Positions 17,569 through 23,674 of a stretch of DNA of 64,000 nt are shown piece after piece. The stretch's first letter is position 1, and each line of letters starts with the position of its first letter. The position numbers were made by a program, and so were the translations under genes. Source of the stretch: Thalassospira sp. (GTDB lineage: Bacteria; Pseudomonadota; Alphaproteobacteria; Rhodospirillales; Thalassospiraceae); the NCBI RefSeq assembly GCF_002709775.1, contig NZ_PAQR01000043.1, forward strand, positions 15,192 through 79,191. Reading direction: 5' to 3'. Under the pieces are notes generated by a model. It made no database searches and was not told the origin of the DNA. It saw only the letters and a program-made list of their open reading frames with translations.

Positions 17569-18513
17569 TTACTCTGCCGGGGAGTTTGCCGGTTCGGTGG
17601 TGCCTTCGGGTGATCTTTTGAATTTGCGGGCAACTGCTGCAACGATCTGATCGTTAAACATCACCAGTGCGGCGGCGGCGACGATGAACACGCCACCCAT
17701 CAGGCTGATCGGGGCGGGCAGGACACCGAATACGACAAGATCCAGAATGATCGCCCAGATCATGGCGGTGTATTCAAACGCCGACAAGGTCGATGCCGGG
17801 GCACGTGCAAGTGCCTCGGTCATGGCGATGTGGGCGAGGCCACCCGTAATGCCAGCGCCAATTAGATAAACGATATTGTCTACTGAAAGTGGCGCCCAGC
17901 CAAACGGGATGGTCAAAAGACCGCCGATGGAACAGATCACCGCAAAGTAAAAGGCAATCGTGCCGGATGGCTCCGTGGTCGTCAGCGCCTTGATCTGCAC
18001 CTTGGCAAAGGCGGTGGTAATCGCAAAAGCCACCCCCGCCCCGATGCCGATCAGGGTGTTGTGATCCAGTCCCGGCGTGGACAGCATCGGCCACAGCATC
18101 AGGAACACACCGGCAAAACCGCCAATGGTTGCACTGATCACAAGCCAACCTGGGTTTTCACGAAGCGTAATGATCGCAACCGGGATCAGGATTAGCGGGG
18201 CCAGGAAGCCAAGGGCGGTGGCCAGTGCCAGCGGAAGATACGCCAGCGACACGAAAGCCAGAAACATCGAAATGCAGCCATAGGTGCTGCGTTTCAAATG
18301 GCCAAGCGGGCGTTTGGTACGAAGGGCTCTGGGGAACTGGTCGCGCCACATCAGATAAAGCACAATCGGGATCAGCGCGACACTGCTTCGCCAAAAGACG
18401 ATCTGGCCGGTCGGCGCTTCGAATGAGGCCAGCCGGACAAACAGGTTCATCACCCCGAACAATCCGGTCGCGGCAAGGCGTAACCCAATTCCAGACCAGA
18501 AGCTGTTCATCAT
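17569..18513 (-). CDS. DMT/EamA family transporter
   Basis: About ten hydrophobic segments in two EamA-like halves; APASTLSAFEYTAMIWA. Confidence 0.88.
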   Translation of the reverse strand: MMNSFWSGIGLRLAATGLFGVMNLFVRLASFEAPTGQIVFWRSSVALIPIVLYLMWRDQFPRALRTKRPLGHLKRSTYGCISMFLAFVSLAYLPLALATALGFLAPLILIPVAIITLRENPGWLVISATIGGFAGVFLMLWPMLSTPGLDHNTLIGIGAGVAFAITTAFAKVQIKALTTTEPSGTIAFYFAVICSIGGLLTIPFGWAPLSVDNIVYLIGAGITGGLAHIAMTEALARAPASTLSAFEYTAMIWAIILDLVVFGVLPAPISLMGGVFIVAAAALVMFNDQIVAAVARKFKRSPEGTTEPANSPAE

Positions 18514-18644
18514 GTTTATCCCGAATGGTGGCCGGTCATCTGACCTGCGTTCAGGAGTATCGCAAGTTCAGAAAGGGCAATACTGATAAATTTTCATGTC
18601 TGACCGCATGATAATTCAATGCACTCGCAGGGAGACCAGTCGCA

Positions 18645-19688
18645 TTACAGGGAATGCAGCCATTTTTCATATCGGGTATCGCGTTCTTCGTCGCTGGCAT
18701 CCGGAATGCTTTTCCGTCCGGCCTGCGCATTACGGCGAAAATCGCCCGGCGTCATGTCGTACTTTTCGCGAAACGCACGGATGAAGCTGGTGTCGCTGGC
18801 AAAGCCGCATTCAAGGGCAATGTCATAAAGTGACCGGTTGCGTTCAGCTGGCGAGCCCAGCAACGACATGGCGTGGCGCAGGCGTAAGTCCCGGATAAAG
18901 CGATAAACCCCGCCGTGATCTTCCATCAACTGATAAAGCTTGGATCGCGAAATCCCCAATTCACGCGCTGCGCGGTCTGGTGTCAGATCCGGGGACTTGA
19001 AGTTCTTGCGGAAATATTGGCGGATCAGGGCCATGGTTTCGAGGTTTTGTCTTTGATGGGCCGTTTCGGATGTTCCGCCGTGGGTCGCGTTCAGGCAGGT
19101 GGCCAGGACTTCGACAAAACTGTTTTCAAGGACGCTGGCCTGCTCCGGGCTGAAGGAATGTGCGTTTTCCTTAAAGGACAGCATCATGCTGGCAAGAATG
19201 CGCACCATCGGATCACGCGGGCTTAGGAAACGCATATTGTGATCTTCGGGAAGGGTCAGGCGGTTCTCAAGCAGCTTGCGGGGAAAGATCATGACAAGGT
19301 TGTCGAAATCTGTCGTGACGGCCGTTGCAACCTGTGAAAGGTCCTGAAACAGCAACCCGCCCTGGGCAAGGCTTCCGCCGTCCTTGCCTTCTTCTGACGA
19401 CATGCCGCCGCCGTGAAAATACTGCACCATATAATGGTCCATGCCGTCGGCTGCGATTGCCGACGGGCTGCGTTTCCAGAACTGATGTTTGCTGATTGTC
19501 CGGGCCAGCATCATCGAGCCCATCAGATCGGCATCCAGTGTCGCATGGAAATCGTTCTTGCGGATGTCGGGAACGGTTTCGACATCAAAGATGCAATCAA
19601 TGCTGCTTTTCCAGATGTCGTATCGCACTGACATCGGAAGGTCATTGACCGTAAAAAAGGTGTGGGTGTTCTGTGGTGTGTCTGTCAT
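18645..19688 (-). CDS. AraC-family regulator (FeaR-like N-terminal domain)
   Basis: C-terminal double HTH (LTPDRAARELGISRSKLYQL; IALECGFASDTSFIRAFREKYDMTP). Confidence 0.92.
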   Translation of the reverse strand: MTDTPQNTHTFFTVNDLPMSVRYDIWKSSIDCIFDVETVPDIRKNDFHATLDADLMGSMMLARTISKHQFWKRSPSAIAADGMDHYMVQYFHGGGMSSEEGKDGGSLAQGGLLFQDLSQVATAVTTDFDNLVMIFPRKLLENRLTLPEDHNMRFLSPRDPMVRILASMMLSFKENAHSFSPEQASVLENSFVEVLATCLNATHGGTSETAHQRQNLETMALIRQYFRKNFKSPDLTPDRAARELGISRSKLYQLMEDHGGVYRFIRDLRLRHAMSLLGSPAERNRSLYDIALECGFASDTSFIRAFREKYDMTPGDFRRNAQAGRKSIPDASDEERDTRYEKWLHSL

Positions 19689-19951
19689 GCCTGATCCCCG
19701 GTTTTGCTTCAAAAGCAAACAACGCTACTTGCGCCGGTCAATTCTGGTGTCGAACGTTAAGGTCGAACAACTCCATAAGTTTTGTATAATATGACTAGTC
19801 CTTCCTGCCCGTCAAAGGCCAAAAAGTATAGTTTCGCCTCTAAACTGGGTCACAAATGTTAGTATTTCGTAACGTCAATAGCTTGGCAGTGTTGGCCCTA
19901 GCCAAAAGAACAAGCCAATCAGGTGTTTGCCTTATCATAACCGGTCAATTT

Positions 19952-19979
19952 TGGACGCTATGCATATTCTTTTGGACGC
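19952..19979 (+). promoter_or_regulatory. Putative AraC-type operator 1 (21-bp-spaced direct repeat)
   Basis: TTTTGGACGC at 19949 and 19970. The second copy gives TTGGAC (19972-77), 17 bp before TGCAAT (19995-20000). Confidence 0.65.
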
Positions 19980-20102
19980 CTCGTACATCGCGACTGCAAT
20001 CACCATGTTAGACTTATAAAAAATTTGCCCGTCCCCTGATCAGAACAAAATAACGAGGGCCGGTGCTATCAGTGTGACGTGATATTTTCTCTGGGGGAGA
20101 AT

Positions 20103-20585
20103 ATGGACCTTATTGAGGTGCCGTCAGCGCGGCCAAAATCGCGCACGGAAAAACGTGATCGTGATCGCGTGGAAAGGGCAATGCCGTCAAAGGCGCCTGA
20201 AGCGAAAGCCACGAGAACTCACAGCAACAATTCATCCGAATTCGCCAATGCGGGATTTGGCGGACCTGATTGCGAGACACTTGCGCCGCTTGCGCGGATG
20301 ATCCTTGTGCTTGAGGGCATCCGGTCCTGTGCCAATGACAAGGTATTGTCCGCAGTTAAGGGTGACGCCGGTAAAGTCGACGGTGAGGGCAAAAGTGCGT
20401 CCACGCAGTCCGAGGCCAAAACAGGTTGGGCTCCTGGCCTTCTGGCAGATATGCGGTCCATGTTTGAACGTGACTGGACTCCGGATCCGATCCGGCGCGA
20501 CAGTGCGAAGCTGTTTGGCGCGACCATCATCCCGGTTAATGACACAAAATCTTTGGCCGACCGTACGGAAACACTGCGAAGCTAG
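20103..20585 (+). CDS. Hypothetical orphan protein
   Basis: ORF with GGGGAGA Shine-Dalgarno before ATG 20103. No recognisable domain. Confidence 0.6.
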   Translation: MDLIEVPSARPKSRTEKRDRDRVERAMPSKAPEAKATRTHSNNSSEFANAGFGGPDCETLAPLARMILVLEGIRSCANDKVLSAVKGDAGKVDGEGKSASTQSEAKTGWAPGLLADMRSMFERDWTPDPIRRDSAKLFGATIIPVNDTKSLADRTETLRS

Positions 20586-20677
20586 TTTTCCAAAGCTGCA
20601 TCGCGTGCGCGAGGCGTGCGGTCGCAGCGTCAAGAAACAATGTCAGAGCGTTTTAGGAGTGCATTTCGTCCATTTTC

Positions 20678-20705
20678 TGGATGATTTGCATATCTATTTG
20701 GATGA
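20678..20705 (+). promoter_or_regulatory. Putative AraC-type operator 2
   Basis: TGGATGA at 20678 and 20699 (21 bp apart), with TGCATAT at the same offset as in operator 1. Confidence 0.6.
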
Positions 20706-20803
20706 ATTGTGCATTACGACAATAAAATCCAAAGTAGAATTACTCGCAATAATAAGACACATGTCCGTTCACAGAGTGGGAAGATCTGCGTTCATGTAAG
20801 GAC

Positions 20804-21424
20804 ATGAATATCAGTGAAGCTTTATATTGTTCTCTGGGGTTAGAGATGATGTCTTGTGTACCACATCCGGCACGCCGGAAGGGAGAAGCCAATTGTCGTG
20901 GTCCAGGCCGCGATTGGGGGCCAAGTAGCCATATTCTTCCCGGACGTCGCGTGAATGAGCCCAATCATCAGGCTTGGCAGTATCTGGTCGAAAGTGACAC
21001 TCACGACGATGAGCCTTTTGAATCCGGGGCTGACGGTTTTTTTTCCGATTACATTGACGAAGCTTCGGTCGCCGTAACGCGAACCTTCGAAGACAGCTTC
21101 AGAATGCTGAAGTCGGTGATGGAAATGATGGCCTTTATCGAAGGTCTTCGTGTCATGCGCCATGACGGGGCGGTTGCCCCCAAAGCGGATAAACGGCTTG
21201 AGCGTCTCAGCAATGATAGTTTTGCCAACAAGAAAGACCAAAATTCGTCGCAGGACCGCAGCGGTTGGTCATCGGAATTCATGGTTCAGCTTCACAATAT
21301 GTGTGCAAGTGGGCAGAAAACGCGACCTGATCATCTCAACGTCACTGAGTGCTATGGAACCTATCTCGAACCTGAGCACGAGATTTTGCCGCCAAAGTCA
21401 CCCGTGACGAGATACAAAAACTAG
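20804..21424 (+). CDS. Hypothetical orphan protein (start uncertain)
   Basis: 206-codon ORF filling the gap before a convergent gene. No recognisable domain. Confidence 0.5.
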   Translation: MNISEALYCSLGLEMMSCVPHPARRKGEANCRGPGRDWGPSSHILPGRRVNEPNHQAWQYLVESDTHDDEPFESGADGFFSDYIDEASVAVTRTFEDSFRMLKSVMEMMAFIEGLRVMRHDGAVAPKADKRLERLSNDSFANKKDQNSSQDRSGWSSEFMVQLHNMCASGQKTRPDHLNVTECYGTYLEPEHEILPPKSPVTRYKN

Positions 21425-21449
21425 GTTCCCGATTTGACGAAAACCGGCC

Positions 21450-22250
21450 TTAGCGGAAATAGCCGCCCGGTGTGCGCCCCGTGGCCTTGCGAAACATCGC
21501 GATAAAGGCCGACGGTGTTTCGTAACCGAGATCAAGGGCGATTTCGGTCACCGGTCGGTCATTGGCAAGCTTTTCCAAAGCATGCAGCAGGCGAAGCTTT
21601 TGCCGCCATTCGCGAAATGGCATGCCGGTTTCGCGTTGAAACAGGCGTGCCAATGTGCGGCTCGACGCGCCACAAATCTTCGCCCAATCTTCAAGCGTGC
21701 GGTTATCGGCCGGATCGCCTTGCAAATGATCGCAAATGCGCGCCAATCGGGCATCCTTGGGGGCGGGCAGGTGAAGCTTGTCCTGATCAGGTGCCTTGAT
21801 CTGATCCAGCAATACGCGGATCAGACGGCCTTCTTCGCCATCCTCATCATATTCGACCGGTATTTCTGTAGCCGCGCGGATCAGTTCACGCAAAAGCGGG
21901 CTGACTTCCAGAACCATGCAGCGATCAGGCAGGCTGGCTGCAACATCCCGGCCAATATAAAGGTGGCGCGCCCGGGTAAAACCAGCACAGGTCACCGCGT
22001 GCTGCGTATGGGGTGGGACCCAGACGGCACGCTGTGGCGGCACGATCCACATCCCGGCTTCGGTCACCACGGTCATGGTGCCTTCAAGCGCATATAAAAG
22101 CTGGTTCCAGTCATGGCTGTGGGCTGCAACGTGGTAGCCAGCGGGCATGTCACTGACCCGGACATATACCGCGCGCGGCAATGCACGGGGGCGCGGGACC
22201 TTGTTGTGATGTTCCGGACGCCCGTCAAAGGTATTGAGGATATGAATCAT
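21450..22250 (-). CDS. AraC-family regulator with cupin sensor domain (NimR/RipA-like)
   Basis: HSHDWNQLLYA cupin, WIVPPQRAVWVP, and HTH SSRTLARLF...ALDLGYETPSAFIAMFRK. Confidence 0.92.
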   Translation of the reverse strand: MIHILNTFDGRPEHHNKVPRPRALPRAVYVRVSDMPAGYHVAAHSHDWNQLLYALEGTMTVVTEAGMWIVPPQRAVWVPPHTQHAVTCAGFTRARHLYIGRDVAASLPDRCMVLEVSPLLRELIRAATEIPVEYDEDGEEGRLIRVLLDQIKAPDQDKLHLPAPKDARLARICDHLQGDPADNRTLEDWAKICGASSRTLARLFQRETGMPFREWRQKLRLLHALEKLANDRPVTEIALDLGYETPSAFIAMFRKATGRTPGGYFR

Positions 22251-22405
22251 GATGCGCTGACATTCAAAACTGTCTTGATTGCGATATATGATGGCAGATT
22301 AACGCAAGACAGACGGATCGGACAGGTTTAACTTGGTCGCATTCCAAAACGCACAAGATGTGACACGGTCATCGCCACCAAAGTGACCCTGTCCCGGGAG
22401 ATAAA

Positions 22406-23674
22406 ATGTCCAAGGAAATCATACCGGAGGCCAGCAATCACGCCGCCCCACTTGGTGATGCCACCGGCGCGCCCATAGCTCCGGTCTATAAGGGATGGCG
22501 CAATCCGGAAGTTCTGCTGATCGTGATGGCGGCTGCCATGCCACTGTCCTTTTCGACCTGGATGGCGCTTTTAAACAACTTTTCGGTCGAGATGGCCGAT
22601 TTTACCGGGCGCGAGATCGGCATCCTGCAGTCGCTGCGCGAAATTCCGGGCTTCCTTGCCTTTACCGCGATCTTTGTCCTGCTGATCCTGCGTGAACAGA
22701 CATTTGCCGTTATCTCGTTGCTGGTGCTTGGCATTGGGGTTGCGATCTCGGGCTATTTCCCGACCGTGATTGGGCTTTATTGCACAACGGTTCTGATGTC
22801 GATCGGCTTCCATTATTTTGAAACCATGCAGCAGGCCTTGTCCCTGCAATGGGTGCGCAAGGACCGCACGGCGATGGTGATGGGGCGGCAGCTTTCGGCC
22901 AAGTCGATCTCGTCGCTGGTGATGTTTGGCATTGTCTGGGTGATGCTTGAAGTCTTTGATGTCGAGTATCGCTATGTCTATTTGCTTGGCGGGGCGCTGA
23001 CGATCATCGCAGCCCTGTTTGTCTGGGGGGCTTTCCCGAAATTCTCCGATGCCCATCCGCAAACCAAGAAGCTGATCCTGCGCAAACGCTATTGGTTGTA
23101 TTACGCCCTGACCTTCATGAGTGGCGCGCGCCGTCAGATCTTTACCGTTTTTGCCGGCTTCCTGATGGTGGAAAAGTTCGGATATGATGCAGCCACCATC
23201 ACCCTGCTTTATCTGGTGAACCATGTGATCAACATGTTCCTGGCACCCAAGATCGGCAAGATGATCGGCAAATGGGGTGAACGCCGTGCGCTGGTATTTG
23301 AATATGCAGGTCTGTTCATCGTTTTCGTCTCTTACGCCTTTGTCGAAAACCATGTGCTGGCCGGTGGACTTTATGTGATTGATCACCTGTTCTTTGCCCT
23401 GGCGATCGCCATCAAGACATATTTCCAGAAGATCGCCGATCCAGCGGATATTTCCTCGACCGCCGGGGTCAGCTTTACAATCAACCATATCGCGGCTGTC
23501 TTCATCCCGGCCGCCTTCGGGTTGCTGTGGCTGATTTCACCGGGTGCGGTATTCCTGGCCGGTGCTGCCATGGCCTTTGTCTCATTGGTTCTGGCGCTTA
23601 ACGTTCCGCATGATCCGGAACCGGGCAATGAGGTTGTGCGCGGCTATAAGTCGACCACGCTGCAGCCTGCCTGA
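22406..23674 (+). CDS. MFS transporter
   Basis: About twelve TM segments; QSLREIPGFLAF, RRQIFTVFAGFLMV, SFTINHIAAV. Confidence 0.88.
   Translation: MSKEIIPEASNHAAPLGDATGAPIAPVYKGWRNPEVLLIVMAAAMPLSFSTWMALLNNFSVEMADFTGREIGILQSLREIPGFLAFTAIFVLLILREQTFAVISLLVLGIGVAISGYFPTVIGLYCTTVLMSIGFHYFETMQQALSLQWVRKDRTAMVMGRQLSAKSISSLVMFGIVWVMLEVFDVEYRYVYLLGGALTIIAALFVWGAFPKFSDAHPQTKKLILRKRYWLYYALTFMSGARRQIFTVFAGFLMVEKFGYDAATITLLYLVNHVINMFLAPKIGKMIGKWGERRALVFEYAGLFIVFVSYAFVENHVLAGGLYVIDHLFFALAIAIKTYFQKIADPADISSTAGVSFTINHIAAVFIPAAFGLLWLISPGAVFLAGAAMAFVSLVLALNVPHDPEPGNEVVRGYKSTTLQPA

What the first reader, a model, noticed from the sequence alone, without database searches (positions are those of the whole stretch)
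18645..21424. AraC regulator facing two orphan genes that share the same 21-bp-spaced operator
Seen: upstream of orphan 1, TGGACGCTATGCATATTCTTTTGGACGC (19952-19979). Upstream of orphan 2, TGGATGATTTGCATATCTATTTGGATGA (20678-20705). Both fit TGGAYGMTWTGCATAT-N3-TTTGGAYGM, with half-sites exactly 21 bp apart. In site 1 the downstream half-site sits at a plausible -35 position (TTGGAC-17 bp-TGCAAT). Known: AraC/XylS activators bind direct repeats about 21 bp apart that overlap -35. Inferred: a small dedicated regulon of two separately promoted proteins of unknown function, switched on by an unknown ligand. The shared motif also supports the weak ORFs being real genes.
Basis: partly seen in the sequence, partly recalled or inferred. 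Interest (0 to 1): 0.7.

Follow-up and report, generated by a model that had tools for sequence, protein, structure and literature searches.

The report
AraC-type operator before two Thalassospira-only genes
A FeaR/CuxR-like AraC regulator sits next to two small genes found only in Thalassospira; each gene carries the same conserved 21-bp-spaced double binding site just upstream of its promoter, which is a textbook activator layout controlling proteins of unknown function.

Summary
Both 28-bp sites are at the stated coordinates and are unique in the window and the genome.

- **Conservation.** The repeat is the most conserved block of the upstream regions in 22 related Thalassospira loci.
- **Position.** It lies a fixed 36 bp before a conserved -10 element (TGnTAGACT).
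- **Link to the regulator.** A strict version of the motif occurs in 18 of 37 genus genomes. All 18 carry a close homologue of the adjacent AraC gene. It occurs in none of the 15 genomes without one.

The regulator is a full-length relative of CuxR (PDB 5NLA) and FeaR, but is neither. It lacks CuxR's N-terminal segment, which is reported to bind c-di-GMP.

The two "orphans" are diverged tandem paralogues of one genus-restricted family, under purifying selection and predicted to be mostly disordered. Operator, promoter and leader were duplicated together with the gene.

A third operator in the same genome precedes a structured, apparently non-coding element between nikR and recA.

No expression or binding data could be obtained. 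Verdict: a new member of a well-known kind of regulatory system, with the function of the targets still unknown. Interest is moderate to low.

The parts
18645..19688 (-). AraC1: an AraC/XylS-family regulator of 347 aa, with a FeaR/CuxR-like N-terminal domain and a dual HTH C-terminal domain
   Evidence: Pfam HTH_18 1.1e-16 and HTH_AraC 8.8e-09. Full-length match to PDB 5NLA (CuxR), E 8.5e-33, residues 9-346 against 46-379. NCBIfam FeaR 109.5 bits over positions 10-302 of 303, below the 199-bit cut-off. The HTH recognition helices (GISRSKLYQ, CGFxSDxSFIRAF) are nearly invariant across 24 orthologues and paralogues.
19786..19815 (-). Candidate sigma-70 promoter of AraC1 (TTGACG, 18 bp, TATTAT)
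   Evidence: Consensus scan, 10 of 12 matches. Prediction only.
19949..19990 (+). Operator 1: two 21-bp direct-repeat units. The distal unit is 19952-19967 (TGGACGCTATGCATAT) and the proximal unit is 19973-19988 (TGGACGCCTCGTACAT), each preceded by a T-run
   Evidence: Weight-matrix score 55.3 bits. Column conservation 0.78 against 0.42-0.46 for flanks in 16 non-redundant relatives.
20006..20014 (+). Conserved extended -10-like element TGTTAGACT of the orphan 1 promoter. It puts the operator at about -69 to -33
   Evidence: Conserved as (T)GnTA(G/c)A(c/a)(t/a) at the same distance from the repeat in relatives. No good -35 hexamer is present (one search found no sigma-70 match on this strand). 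The transcription start site is not mapped.
20064..20102 (+). Conserved leader block (TATCAGTG ... ATATTTTCTCTGGGGGAGAAT) containing the Shine-Dalgarno sequence
   Evidence: Conservation 0.71. A 1-nt indel between the two window copies shifts the frame, so the conservation is at the DNA or RNA level, not the protein level.
20103..20585 (+). Orphan 1, 160 aa, a diverged member of the genus-restricted family
   Evidence: Found in 5 of 37 genus genomes at 55-88% identity, all with open frames. dN/dS 0.31-0.42. Linked to the family through P0013, E 5e-13. No Pfam, NCBIfam or PADLOC hit.
20675..20716 (+). Operator 2: distal unit 20678-20693 (TGGATGATTTGCATAT) and proximal unit 20699-20714 (TGGATGAATTGTGCAT)
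   Evidence: Weight-matrix score 54.5 bits. Conserved before the orthologues in G006, G002, G020, G019, G025, G030, G024 and G008.
20735..20740 (+). -10-like hexamer TAGAAT of the orphan 2 promoter, starting 36 bp after the start of the proximal TGGA, as in promoter 1
20846..21424 (+). Orphan 2, 192 aa (the longest ORF starts at 20804, but ATG 20846 follows the conserved Shine-Dalgarno block)
   Evidence: Homologues in 28 of 61 genomes searched, all in the genus. dN/dS 0.04-0.21. Only 15 representatives among 1.84 billion proteins. AlphaFold2 pLDDT 51, with a long helix at 63-106 and the rest mostly disordered. Family members start MxSxxxHPARR directly after GGGGGAGAA.
21450..22250 (-). AraC2: a classical cupin-type AraC regulator, convergent with orphan 2 and divergent from an MFS transporter gene (22406-23674). 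Probably not part of the system
   Evidence: Pfam AraC_binding, Cupin_2 and HTH_18. Present at 70-99% identity in all 27 loci, including those that lack the repeat.

Best explanation
[quoted passage not shown] I propose that it binds as a dimer to two bipartite 21-bp direct-repeat units (TTTGGAY-N4-TGnnCA) upstream of each of two paralogous genes.

Judged from the conserved -10 element, the units cover about -69 to -33, so the proximal unit overlaps a poor -35. This is the classical class II activator geometry, in which the bound regulator recruits RNA polymerase when its N-terminal cupin-like domain senses a still unknown ligand.

The two targets are tandem paralogues of a Thalassospira-only family of small, mostly disordered cytoplasmic proteins with a central helix. 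Operator, promoter, leader and gene were duplicated as one unit. The regulator plus target module diversifies quickly inside an otherwise conserved neighbourhood.

Shown: the motif, its uniqueness, its conservation, its fixed position, its co-occurrence with AraC1-type genes, and the coding status of both genes. Inferred: binding by AraC1, activation rather than repression, the promoter position, ligand dependence, and what the proteins do.
For: - **Motif exact and unique.**
- **Phylogenetic footprint.** The operator is conserved at 0.78 against 0.42-0.46 for flanks in 16 non-redundant upstream regions whose proteins are only 30-40% identical. It differs at 2 of 42 positions (site 1) between genomes where dS is 0.55-0.97.
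- **Fixed 36-bp distance** to a conserved TGnTAGAnT element in both window promoters and in relatives. No sigma-70 -35/-10 pair is predicted on this strand, as expected for an activator-dependent promoter.
- **Genus-wide specificity.** The strict pattern gives 26 hits in 18 of 37 genomes and 0 hits for the reversed control. All 18 genomes are among the 22 with an AraC1-type homologue at E<=1e-70, and none of the 15 genomes without one has a hit. All hits lie at two kinds of locus.
- **Loss pattern.** A group of five genomes that keeps the orphan and AraC2 but lacks AraC1 has lost the repeat and shows a different palindrome instead.
- **Paired modules.** In G009, two AraC1 copies each sit divergently from their own orphan, each with its own operator.
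- **Conserved DNA-reading helices.** The AraC1 HTH helices are nearly invariant while the rest of the protein falls to 46% identity, matching the invariant TGGA and TGCA cores.
- **Unrelated target.** A variant of the operator precedes an unrelated 94-aa ORF next to AraC1 in other species, so the motif is not just a by-product of orphan duplication.
Against: - There is no binding, expression or transcription start data.
- The co-occurrence counts are not phylogenetically independent; the genomes lacking both features may represent only one or two loss events.
- The own genome has a second AraC1-type paralogue (45% identical, G000:C53) with similar HTH helices. It could bind the same sites.
- G012 keeps a recognisable operator (39 bits) although its only AraC1-type gene lies elsewhere in the genome.
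- The promoter assignment rests on a conserved -10-like element alone.
- The function of the target proteins is unknown, and the structure model has low confidence.
Confidence: 0.7

Rival explanations
1. The repeats are bound by, or shared with, a different AraC1-type paralogue, such as the 45%-identical gene at G000:C53:101106-102113. AraC1 adjacency would then be only part of the story, with cross-talk between paralogues.
For: The paralogue has similar recognition helices (LSRSSLYRLF and CGYETDAGFIRAF). G012 retains a 39-bit operator with its only AraC1-type gene elsewhere in the genome. Many genomes carry 2-3 AraC1-type genes.
Against: The operator is always in the intergenic region directly next to an AraC1 copy when one is present at the locus, and modules duplicate as regulator-target pairs. 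No matching operator is seen around the C53 paralogue itself.
Confidence: 0.12
2. AraC1 binds the repeats but acts as a repressor or dual regulator. This would apply, for example, if the true promoter is the reader's TTGGAC-17-TGCAAT, so that the proximal unit covers the -35 hexamer itself.
For: TTGGAC-17-TGCAAT exists at 19972-20000, and TTGGAT-17-AATAAA exists at the equivalent place in site 2. Some AraC-family members repress.
Against: The TGCAAT position is poorly conserved in relatives (0.3-0.5), whereas TGnTAGAnT further downstream is conserved. Tandem direct repeats ending near -35 are the typical activator layout (general knowledge of AraC, XylS, RhaS and MelR).
Confidence: 0.1
3. The shared motif has no regulator. 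It is a promoter or UP-like element, or simply left-over similarity from the tandem duplication of the gene unit.
For: The two upstream regions are homologous over about 230 bp, so the identity of the two window sites is not independent.
Against: The motif is far better conserved than surrounding homologous DNA across species with saturated synonymous divergence. It also precedes non-homologous targets. It vanishes with the AraC1-type gene. A sigma-54 reading fails, because GG and GC are separated by 7 nt, not the required 10.
Confidence: 0.05
4. The downstream regulator AraC2 (21450-22250) is the protein that binds the repeats.
For: It is an AraC-family protein immediately next to orphan 2.
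Against: AraC2 is present and conserved (70-99%) in all 27 loci, including the six without any repeat. It is divergent from an MFS transporter gene, its more likely target.
Confidence: 0.03

Closest known systems
CuxR of Sinorhizobium (PDB 5NLA), an AraC-like activator of the uxs1 exopolysaccharide cluster
   Same: Full-length sequence similarity (E 8.5e-33, residues 9-346 against 46-379), with the same cupin-like domain, helical hairpin and dual HTH, and a similar first recognition helix. CuxR also needs a direct-repeat element upstream of the -35/-10 boxes of its target (PMC12560781).
   Different: AraC1 starts about 37 residues later than the crystallised chain. The N-terminal segment upstream of the aligned region, where the reported N-terminal RxxxR c-di-GMP motif would lie, is therefore missing. 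The only RxxxR in AraC1 (RQYFR, around residue 223) lies at the DNA-binding domain (sequence). The CuxR repeat (CG-GAT--CG-GAT, PMC12560781) differs from TGGAY-N4-TGCA. The targets are unrelated.
FeaR of E. coli and Klebsiella, an aromatic-aldehyde-sensing AraC-family activator of tynA/feaB
   Same: Best NCBIfam model, covering nearly the whole protein (positions 10-302 of 303, E 2.1e-31). Same domain organisation. FeaR is a ligand-dependent activator (PMC11542736).
   Different: The score of 109.5 bits is far below the equivalog cut-off of 199. There are no amine oxidase or aldehyde dehydrogenase genes nearby, and the targets are small proteins of unknown function.
Classical class II AraC/XylS promoters (araBAD I1-I2, XylS at Pm, RhaS, MelR), from general knowledge
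   Same: Two direct-repeat half-sites with about 21-bp periodicity, each bipartite (two major-groove contacts per monomer). The proximal site abuts or overlaps -35, the -35 hexamer is weak, and the regulator gene is divergent.
   Different: The sequence of the boxes is different. Nothing is known about ligand, looping or auxiliary factors, and the position relative to +1 is inferred, not mapped.

Membership tests
AraC/XylS family of transcription regulators (AraC1) | C-terminal domain of about 100 aa with two helix-turn-helix motifs | tested here: met
   Pfam HTH_18 61.3 bits (cut-off 33.6) and HTH_AraC 35.7 bits (cut-off 26.6), residues 241-319.
FeaR equivalog (NCBIfam NF007243) | Whole-protein score above the curated cut-off of 199 bits | tested here: not met
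   109.5 bits. It is related in architecture but is not FeaR.
CuxR-type c-di-GMP-binding AraC regulators | Full-length similarity to the CuxR fold (cupin-like domain, helical hairpin, HTH) | tested here: met
   phmmer against 5NLA, E 8.5e-33 over residues 9-346. 5NLA is identified as CuxR in PMC7499043.
CuxR-type c-di-GMP-binding AraC regulators | N-terminal RxxxR motif that wraps c-di-GMP. The paper describing it, PMC5474780, was not held, so the motif position is taken from my own knowledge and from mentions in PMC9045272. | tested here: inconclusive
   AraC1 has only 8 residues (18 with the alternative TTG start) before the aligned region, and no RxxxR there. The motif therefore appears absent, but the exact CuxR residues could not be checked.
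Class II AraC-type activator site | Two direct-repeat half-sites about 21 bp apart | tested here: met
Class II AraC-type activator site | Proximal half-site adjoins or overlaps the -35 region of the regulated promoter | tested here: inconclusive
   This follows if the conserved TGnTAGAnT is the -10 (proximal unit at about -48 to -33).
Class II AraC-type activator site | The regulator binds the site and activates transcription | not testable with these tools
   Needs EMSA or footprinting and reporter assays.
Sigma-54 promoter (considered because of TGGAC ... TTGCA) | GG and GC elements separated by exactly 10 nt (TGGCAC-N5-TTGCW) | tested here: not met
   GG and GC are separated by 7 nt in all units (and the instances).
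Any described protein family (orphans 1 and 2) | Significant match to Pfam, NCBIfam, PADLOC or PDB sequences | tested here: not met
   No hits. The best PDB profile hit has E 1.3.

The most novel reading that the evidence does not exclude
AraC1 and its targets could form a self-contained, rapidly diversifying signalling module special to Thalassospira. In this reading, a ligand-sensing CuxR/FeaR-like activator switches on disordered helical proteins that act back on the regulator or on another partner (in the manner of AraC negative regulators or partner-switching anti-activators). It would also switch on a structured small RNA running antisense into the 3' end of nikR next to recA. This would tie an unknown signal to nickel or DNA-damage physiology.
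Probability: 0.12. Interest if true: 0.55.

Novelty: new member of a known kind. Interest (0 to 1): 0.35.

Why it matters
The finding gives a clean, testable operator-regulator-target assignment for an uncharacterised branch of the AraC family related to CuxR and FeaR. It also marks a genus-restricted protein family as really expressed and regulated rather than as annotation noise. The module is a tidy example of regulator, operator and target duplicating and diverging together inside a conserved neighbourhood. It does not change how AraC-type regulation is understood.

Tried and rejected
- **Sigma-54 promoter reading** of TGGAC ... TTGCA: rejected on spacing (7 nt, not 10).
- **AraC2 as the cognate regulator:** rejected, because it persists where the motif is absent.
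- **Conserved block before the ATG as coding sequence:** rejected, because a 1-nt indel shifts the frame between the two copies and family members start right after GGGGGAGAA.
- **c-di-GMP sensing as in CuxR:** not supported, because the N-terminal segment is missing. The original paper (PMC5474780) was not held.
- **Rfam:** no match in 18000-22500 or at the third site.
- **Structure prediction of orphan 2:** too poor (pLDDT 51) for a fold search, so none was run.
- **Other searches on the orphans:** PADLOC, Pfam, NCBIfam and a PDB profile search found nothing.
- **Consensus fold of the leaders from the MAFFT alignment:** gave no structure, although single-sequence folds suggest a lineage-specific hairpin.
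- my first pattern search used the wrong spacing. My first orphan 1 query in scripts was one base out of frame (corrected). This changed identities but not positions.
- **Earlier findings of the scan:** nothing on this region.
Full report
**Observation**

Each 21-bp unit is bipartite: a T-run, TGGAY, four bases, then a TGCA-like box. Site 1 has units at 19952-19967 and 19973-19988. Site 2 has units at 20678-20693 and 20699-20714.

**The two genes and their upstream regions are one duplicated unit**

The 230 bp upstream of the two ORFs align throughout. They share three blocks: the repeat, a -10-like element, and a block just before the start codon (TATCAGTG ... TTCTCTGGGG).

A 1-nt indel inside that last block puts the two copies in different frames. 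The block is therefore conserved as DNA or RNA, not as protein. This moves the start of orphan 2 from ATG 20804 to ATG 20846, and orphan 1 starts at ATG 20103.

The two proteins are only weakly similar to each other (E 0.011). Both match the same Thalassospira protein, P0013, with E 5e-13 and 5e-27, so they are diverged tandem paralogues. The fact that both window genes carry the motif is therefore not independent evidence. The test has to come from other genomes.

**Organism and neighbourhood**

A homologue is named as from Thalassospira sp.. The collection holds 37 genomes of the genus.

In the 27 relatives' loci I fetched, the flanks are conserved at 70-99% identity. They comprise a dehydrogenase-like gene, an EamA transporter, a second AraC gene (AraC2, 21450-22250) and an MFS transporter.

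The stretch between EamA and AraC2 is highly variable:
- It holds one or two copies of the first AraC gene (AraC1) at 46-99% identity.
- It holds one or two family members at 27-98% identity.
- In G009 there are two complete divergent AraC1-orphan pairs.
- A group of five genomes (G016, G021, G028, G031, G036) keeps an orphan and AraC2 but has no AraC1.

**Comparative test of the motif**

In a MAFFT alignment of 36 upstream regions, the repeat is aligned in all 30 regions from 22 loci that include every locus with AraC1 (G033's copy lies further upstream and is found only by the matrix), about 155 bp before the start codon. This holds although the proteins are only 30-40% identical between the clades.

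| Block (16 non-redundant sequences) | Column conservation |
|---|---|
| Upstream DNA | 0.42 |
| Repeat | 0.78 |
| Spacer | 0.46 |
| -10-like element | 0.69 |
| Pre-ATG block | 0.71 |

The five-genome group without AraC1 has no repeat. It shows a different palindrome instead (TCTTATAGGTAATAAGA).

A strict pattern derived from the instances gives 26 hits in 18 of 37 genomes and none for the reversed control. AraC1-type homologues (E <= 1e-70) occur in 22 of 37 genomes. All 18 operator genomes are among these 22, and none of the 15 without such a gene has a hit.

The four exceptions among the 22 are explained as follows:
- G033 and G012 have variant or degenerate sites (37 and 39 bits).
- G013 has a one-mismatch site.
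- In G017 the locus is cut by a contig end.

These counts are not phylogenetically independent and should be read as a consistent pattern, not a statistic.

AraC2 is present everywhere, including where the motif is absent. It is therefore not the partner.

**Promoter geometry**

The conserved element is TGTTAGACT at 20006-20014, and TAGAAT at 20735-20740 for site 2. In both promoters and in relatives it starts 36 bp after the start of the proximal TGGA.

With a start site about 7 nt further on, the units span roughly -69 to -54 and -48 to -33. The -35 position holds a poor hexamer, and the consensus scan finds no sigma-70 promoter on this strand. It does find a good one for AraC1 on the other strand at 19786-19815. 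This is the usual layout for a class II AraC/XylS activator (general knowledge of araBAD, Pm, rhaBAD).

A sigma-54 reading suggested by TGGAC ... TTGCA fails on spacing.

**The regulator**

AraC1 has the family's dual HTH domain. Over its whole length it matches the crystal structure 5NLA (E 8.5e-33), which is CuxR of Sinorhizobium meliloti (PMC7499043). It also matches the FeaR model, at 109.5 bits against a cut-off of 199. It is a relative of both and an equivalent of neither.

CuxR binds c-di-GMP and needs a direct-repeat element in its target promoter (PMC12560781). FeaR senses aromatic aldehydes (PMC11542736). AraC1 begins about 37 residues later than the crystallised CuxR chain and has no RxxxR near its N-terminus. 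I therefore do not propose c-di-GMP as its ligand; the ligand is unknown.

Across 24 AraC1 sequences the two recognition helices are almost invariant, while the rest of the protein diverges to 46% identity. This fits the invariant TGGA and TGCA cores.

**The targets**

Both ORFs are real genes. They are open in relatives. dN/dS against relatives is 0.31-0.42 for orphan 1 and 0.04-0.21 for orphan 2, compared with 0.02-0.08 for the two AraC genes.

The family is tiny, with 15 representatives among 1.84 billion proteins, and it was found only in this genus among 61 genomes of the order.

Its conserved parts are:
- an N-terminal basic motif (HPARRKGE-N-RGPGRDWG ... LPGRR-NEPNH-AW), which has diverged beyond recognition in orphan 1;
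- a central helix (LKS..E....LEGIR);
- a C-terminal GWSSE..VQLHNM ... YG block.

AlphaFold2 gives pLDDT 51, with one long helix and mostly disorder. There is no signal peptide or membrane segment by inspection, and no hit in any library. What the proteins do is unknown. A feedback role on the regulator is only a guess.

**Beyond the window**

The weight matrix finds one more strong site in this genome (38.6 bits, with the next at 18.6). It lies at G000:C52:10442-10483, between nikR and recA, and points toward the 3' end of nikR.

The operator and about 120 nt downstream of it are present only in G000, G006, G002, G020 and G009. They lack a conserved start codon and fold into three hairpins (alifold -44.8). 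There is no Rfam match. This element may be a small RNA, or a decayed copy of the gene unit.

In other species a weaker variant of the operator precedes an unrelated 94-aa ORF beside AraC1. The motif therefore serves non-homologous targets, which argues against mere duplication residue.

The genome also has a 45%-identical AraC1 paralogue (C53) with similar recognition helices. It could share these sites.

**Verdict**

This is a new member of a well-known kind of system. Its value is as a ready-made, testable regulator-operator-target assignment and as evidence that a genus-specific protein family is real. Confidence that AraC1 binds these repeats and activates both genes is about 0.7. Interest is 0.35.

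Noticed in passing
G000:C52:10239-10483 (locus L053:1740-1984, minus strand), outside the window: A third copy of the operator (38.6 bits) lies between nikR and recA, pointing at the 3' end of nikR. It is followed by about 120 nt conserved in only five genomes. That stretch has no conserved start codon, a three-hairpin consensus fold (-44.8 kcal/mol) and no Rfam match. It is a candidate AraC1-controlled small or antisense RNA, or a decayed gene unit.
   Followed up: partly
window 20024-20065 and 20759-20807; the same position in relatives' loci: A stem-loop with an A-rich loop precedes the ATCAG box in the 5' leaders of family members. Its arms differ between lineages but still pair (for example ACAUGUCC/GGACAUG, GCUCUGC/GCAGAGU, CUCGAAGC/GCUUCGAG). 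It also occurs in the group without AraC1. Single-sequence z-scores are weak, and a consensus fold on the MAFFT alignment failed.
   Followed up: partly
window 19882-19908; stronger in L040, L041 and L044: An inverted repeat lies between the divergent AraC1 and orphan promoters. It reads CTTTGGTATAG, about 15 nt, CTATACCAAAG in relatives, and TTGGC ... GCCAA in the window. It may be a site for another regulator.
   Followed up: no
L036:3339-3784 (G026), and equivalents in L034-L041, L043 and L044: A variant operator (TGGACGAATTGCATAAAAATCTGGACGAACGGGATAGTG, 11-30 bits) precedes a 94-aa ORF between EamA and AraC1. A related 137-aa ORF lies next to the AraC1 paralogue in the own genome (L054:3765-4181). 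Neither has a Pfam hit.
   Followed up: partly
L046 and L048-L051 (G021, G031, G028, G036, G016): Where AraC1 is absent, the orphan's upstream region carries the palindrome TCTTATAGGTAATAAGA, and at least G028 (L049) and G016 (L051) hold a DUF4347-type protein there. In G016 the slot also holds a DUF4123 protein (a T6SS adaptor type) with two unknown genes. The slot between EamA and AraC2 therefore behaves as a variable hotspot.
   Followed up: partly
window 20103-20585 compared with G006: Orphan 1 is only 86-88% identical between G000 and G006, although neighbouring genes are 98-99% identical (dN/dS 0.31). It is the fastest-evolving gene of the locus, and its N-terminal family motif has diverged beyond recognition.
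   Followed up: partly
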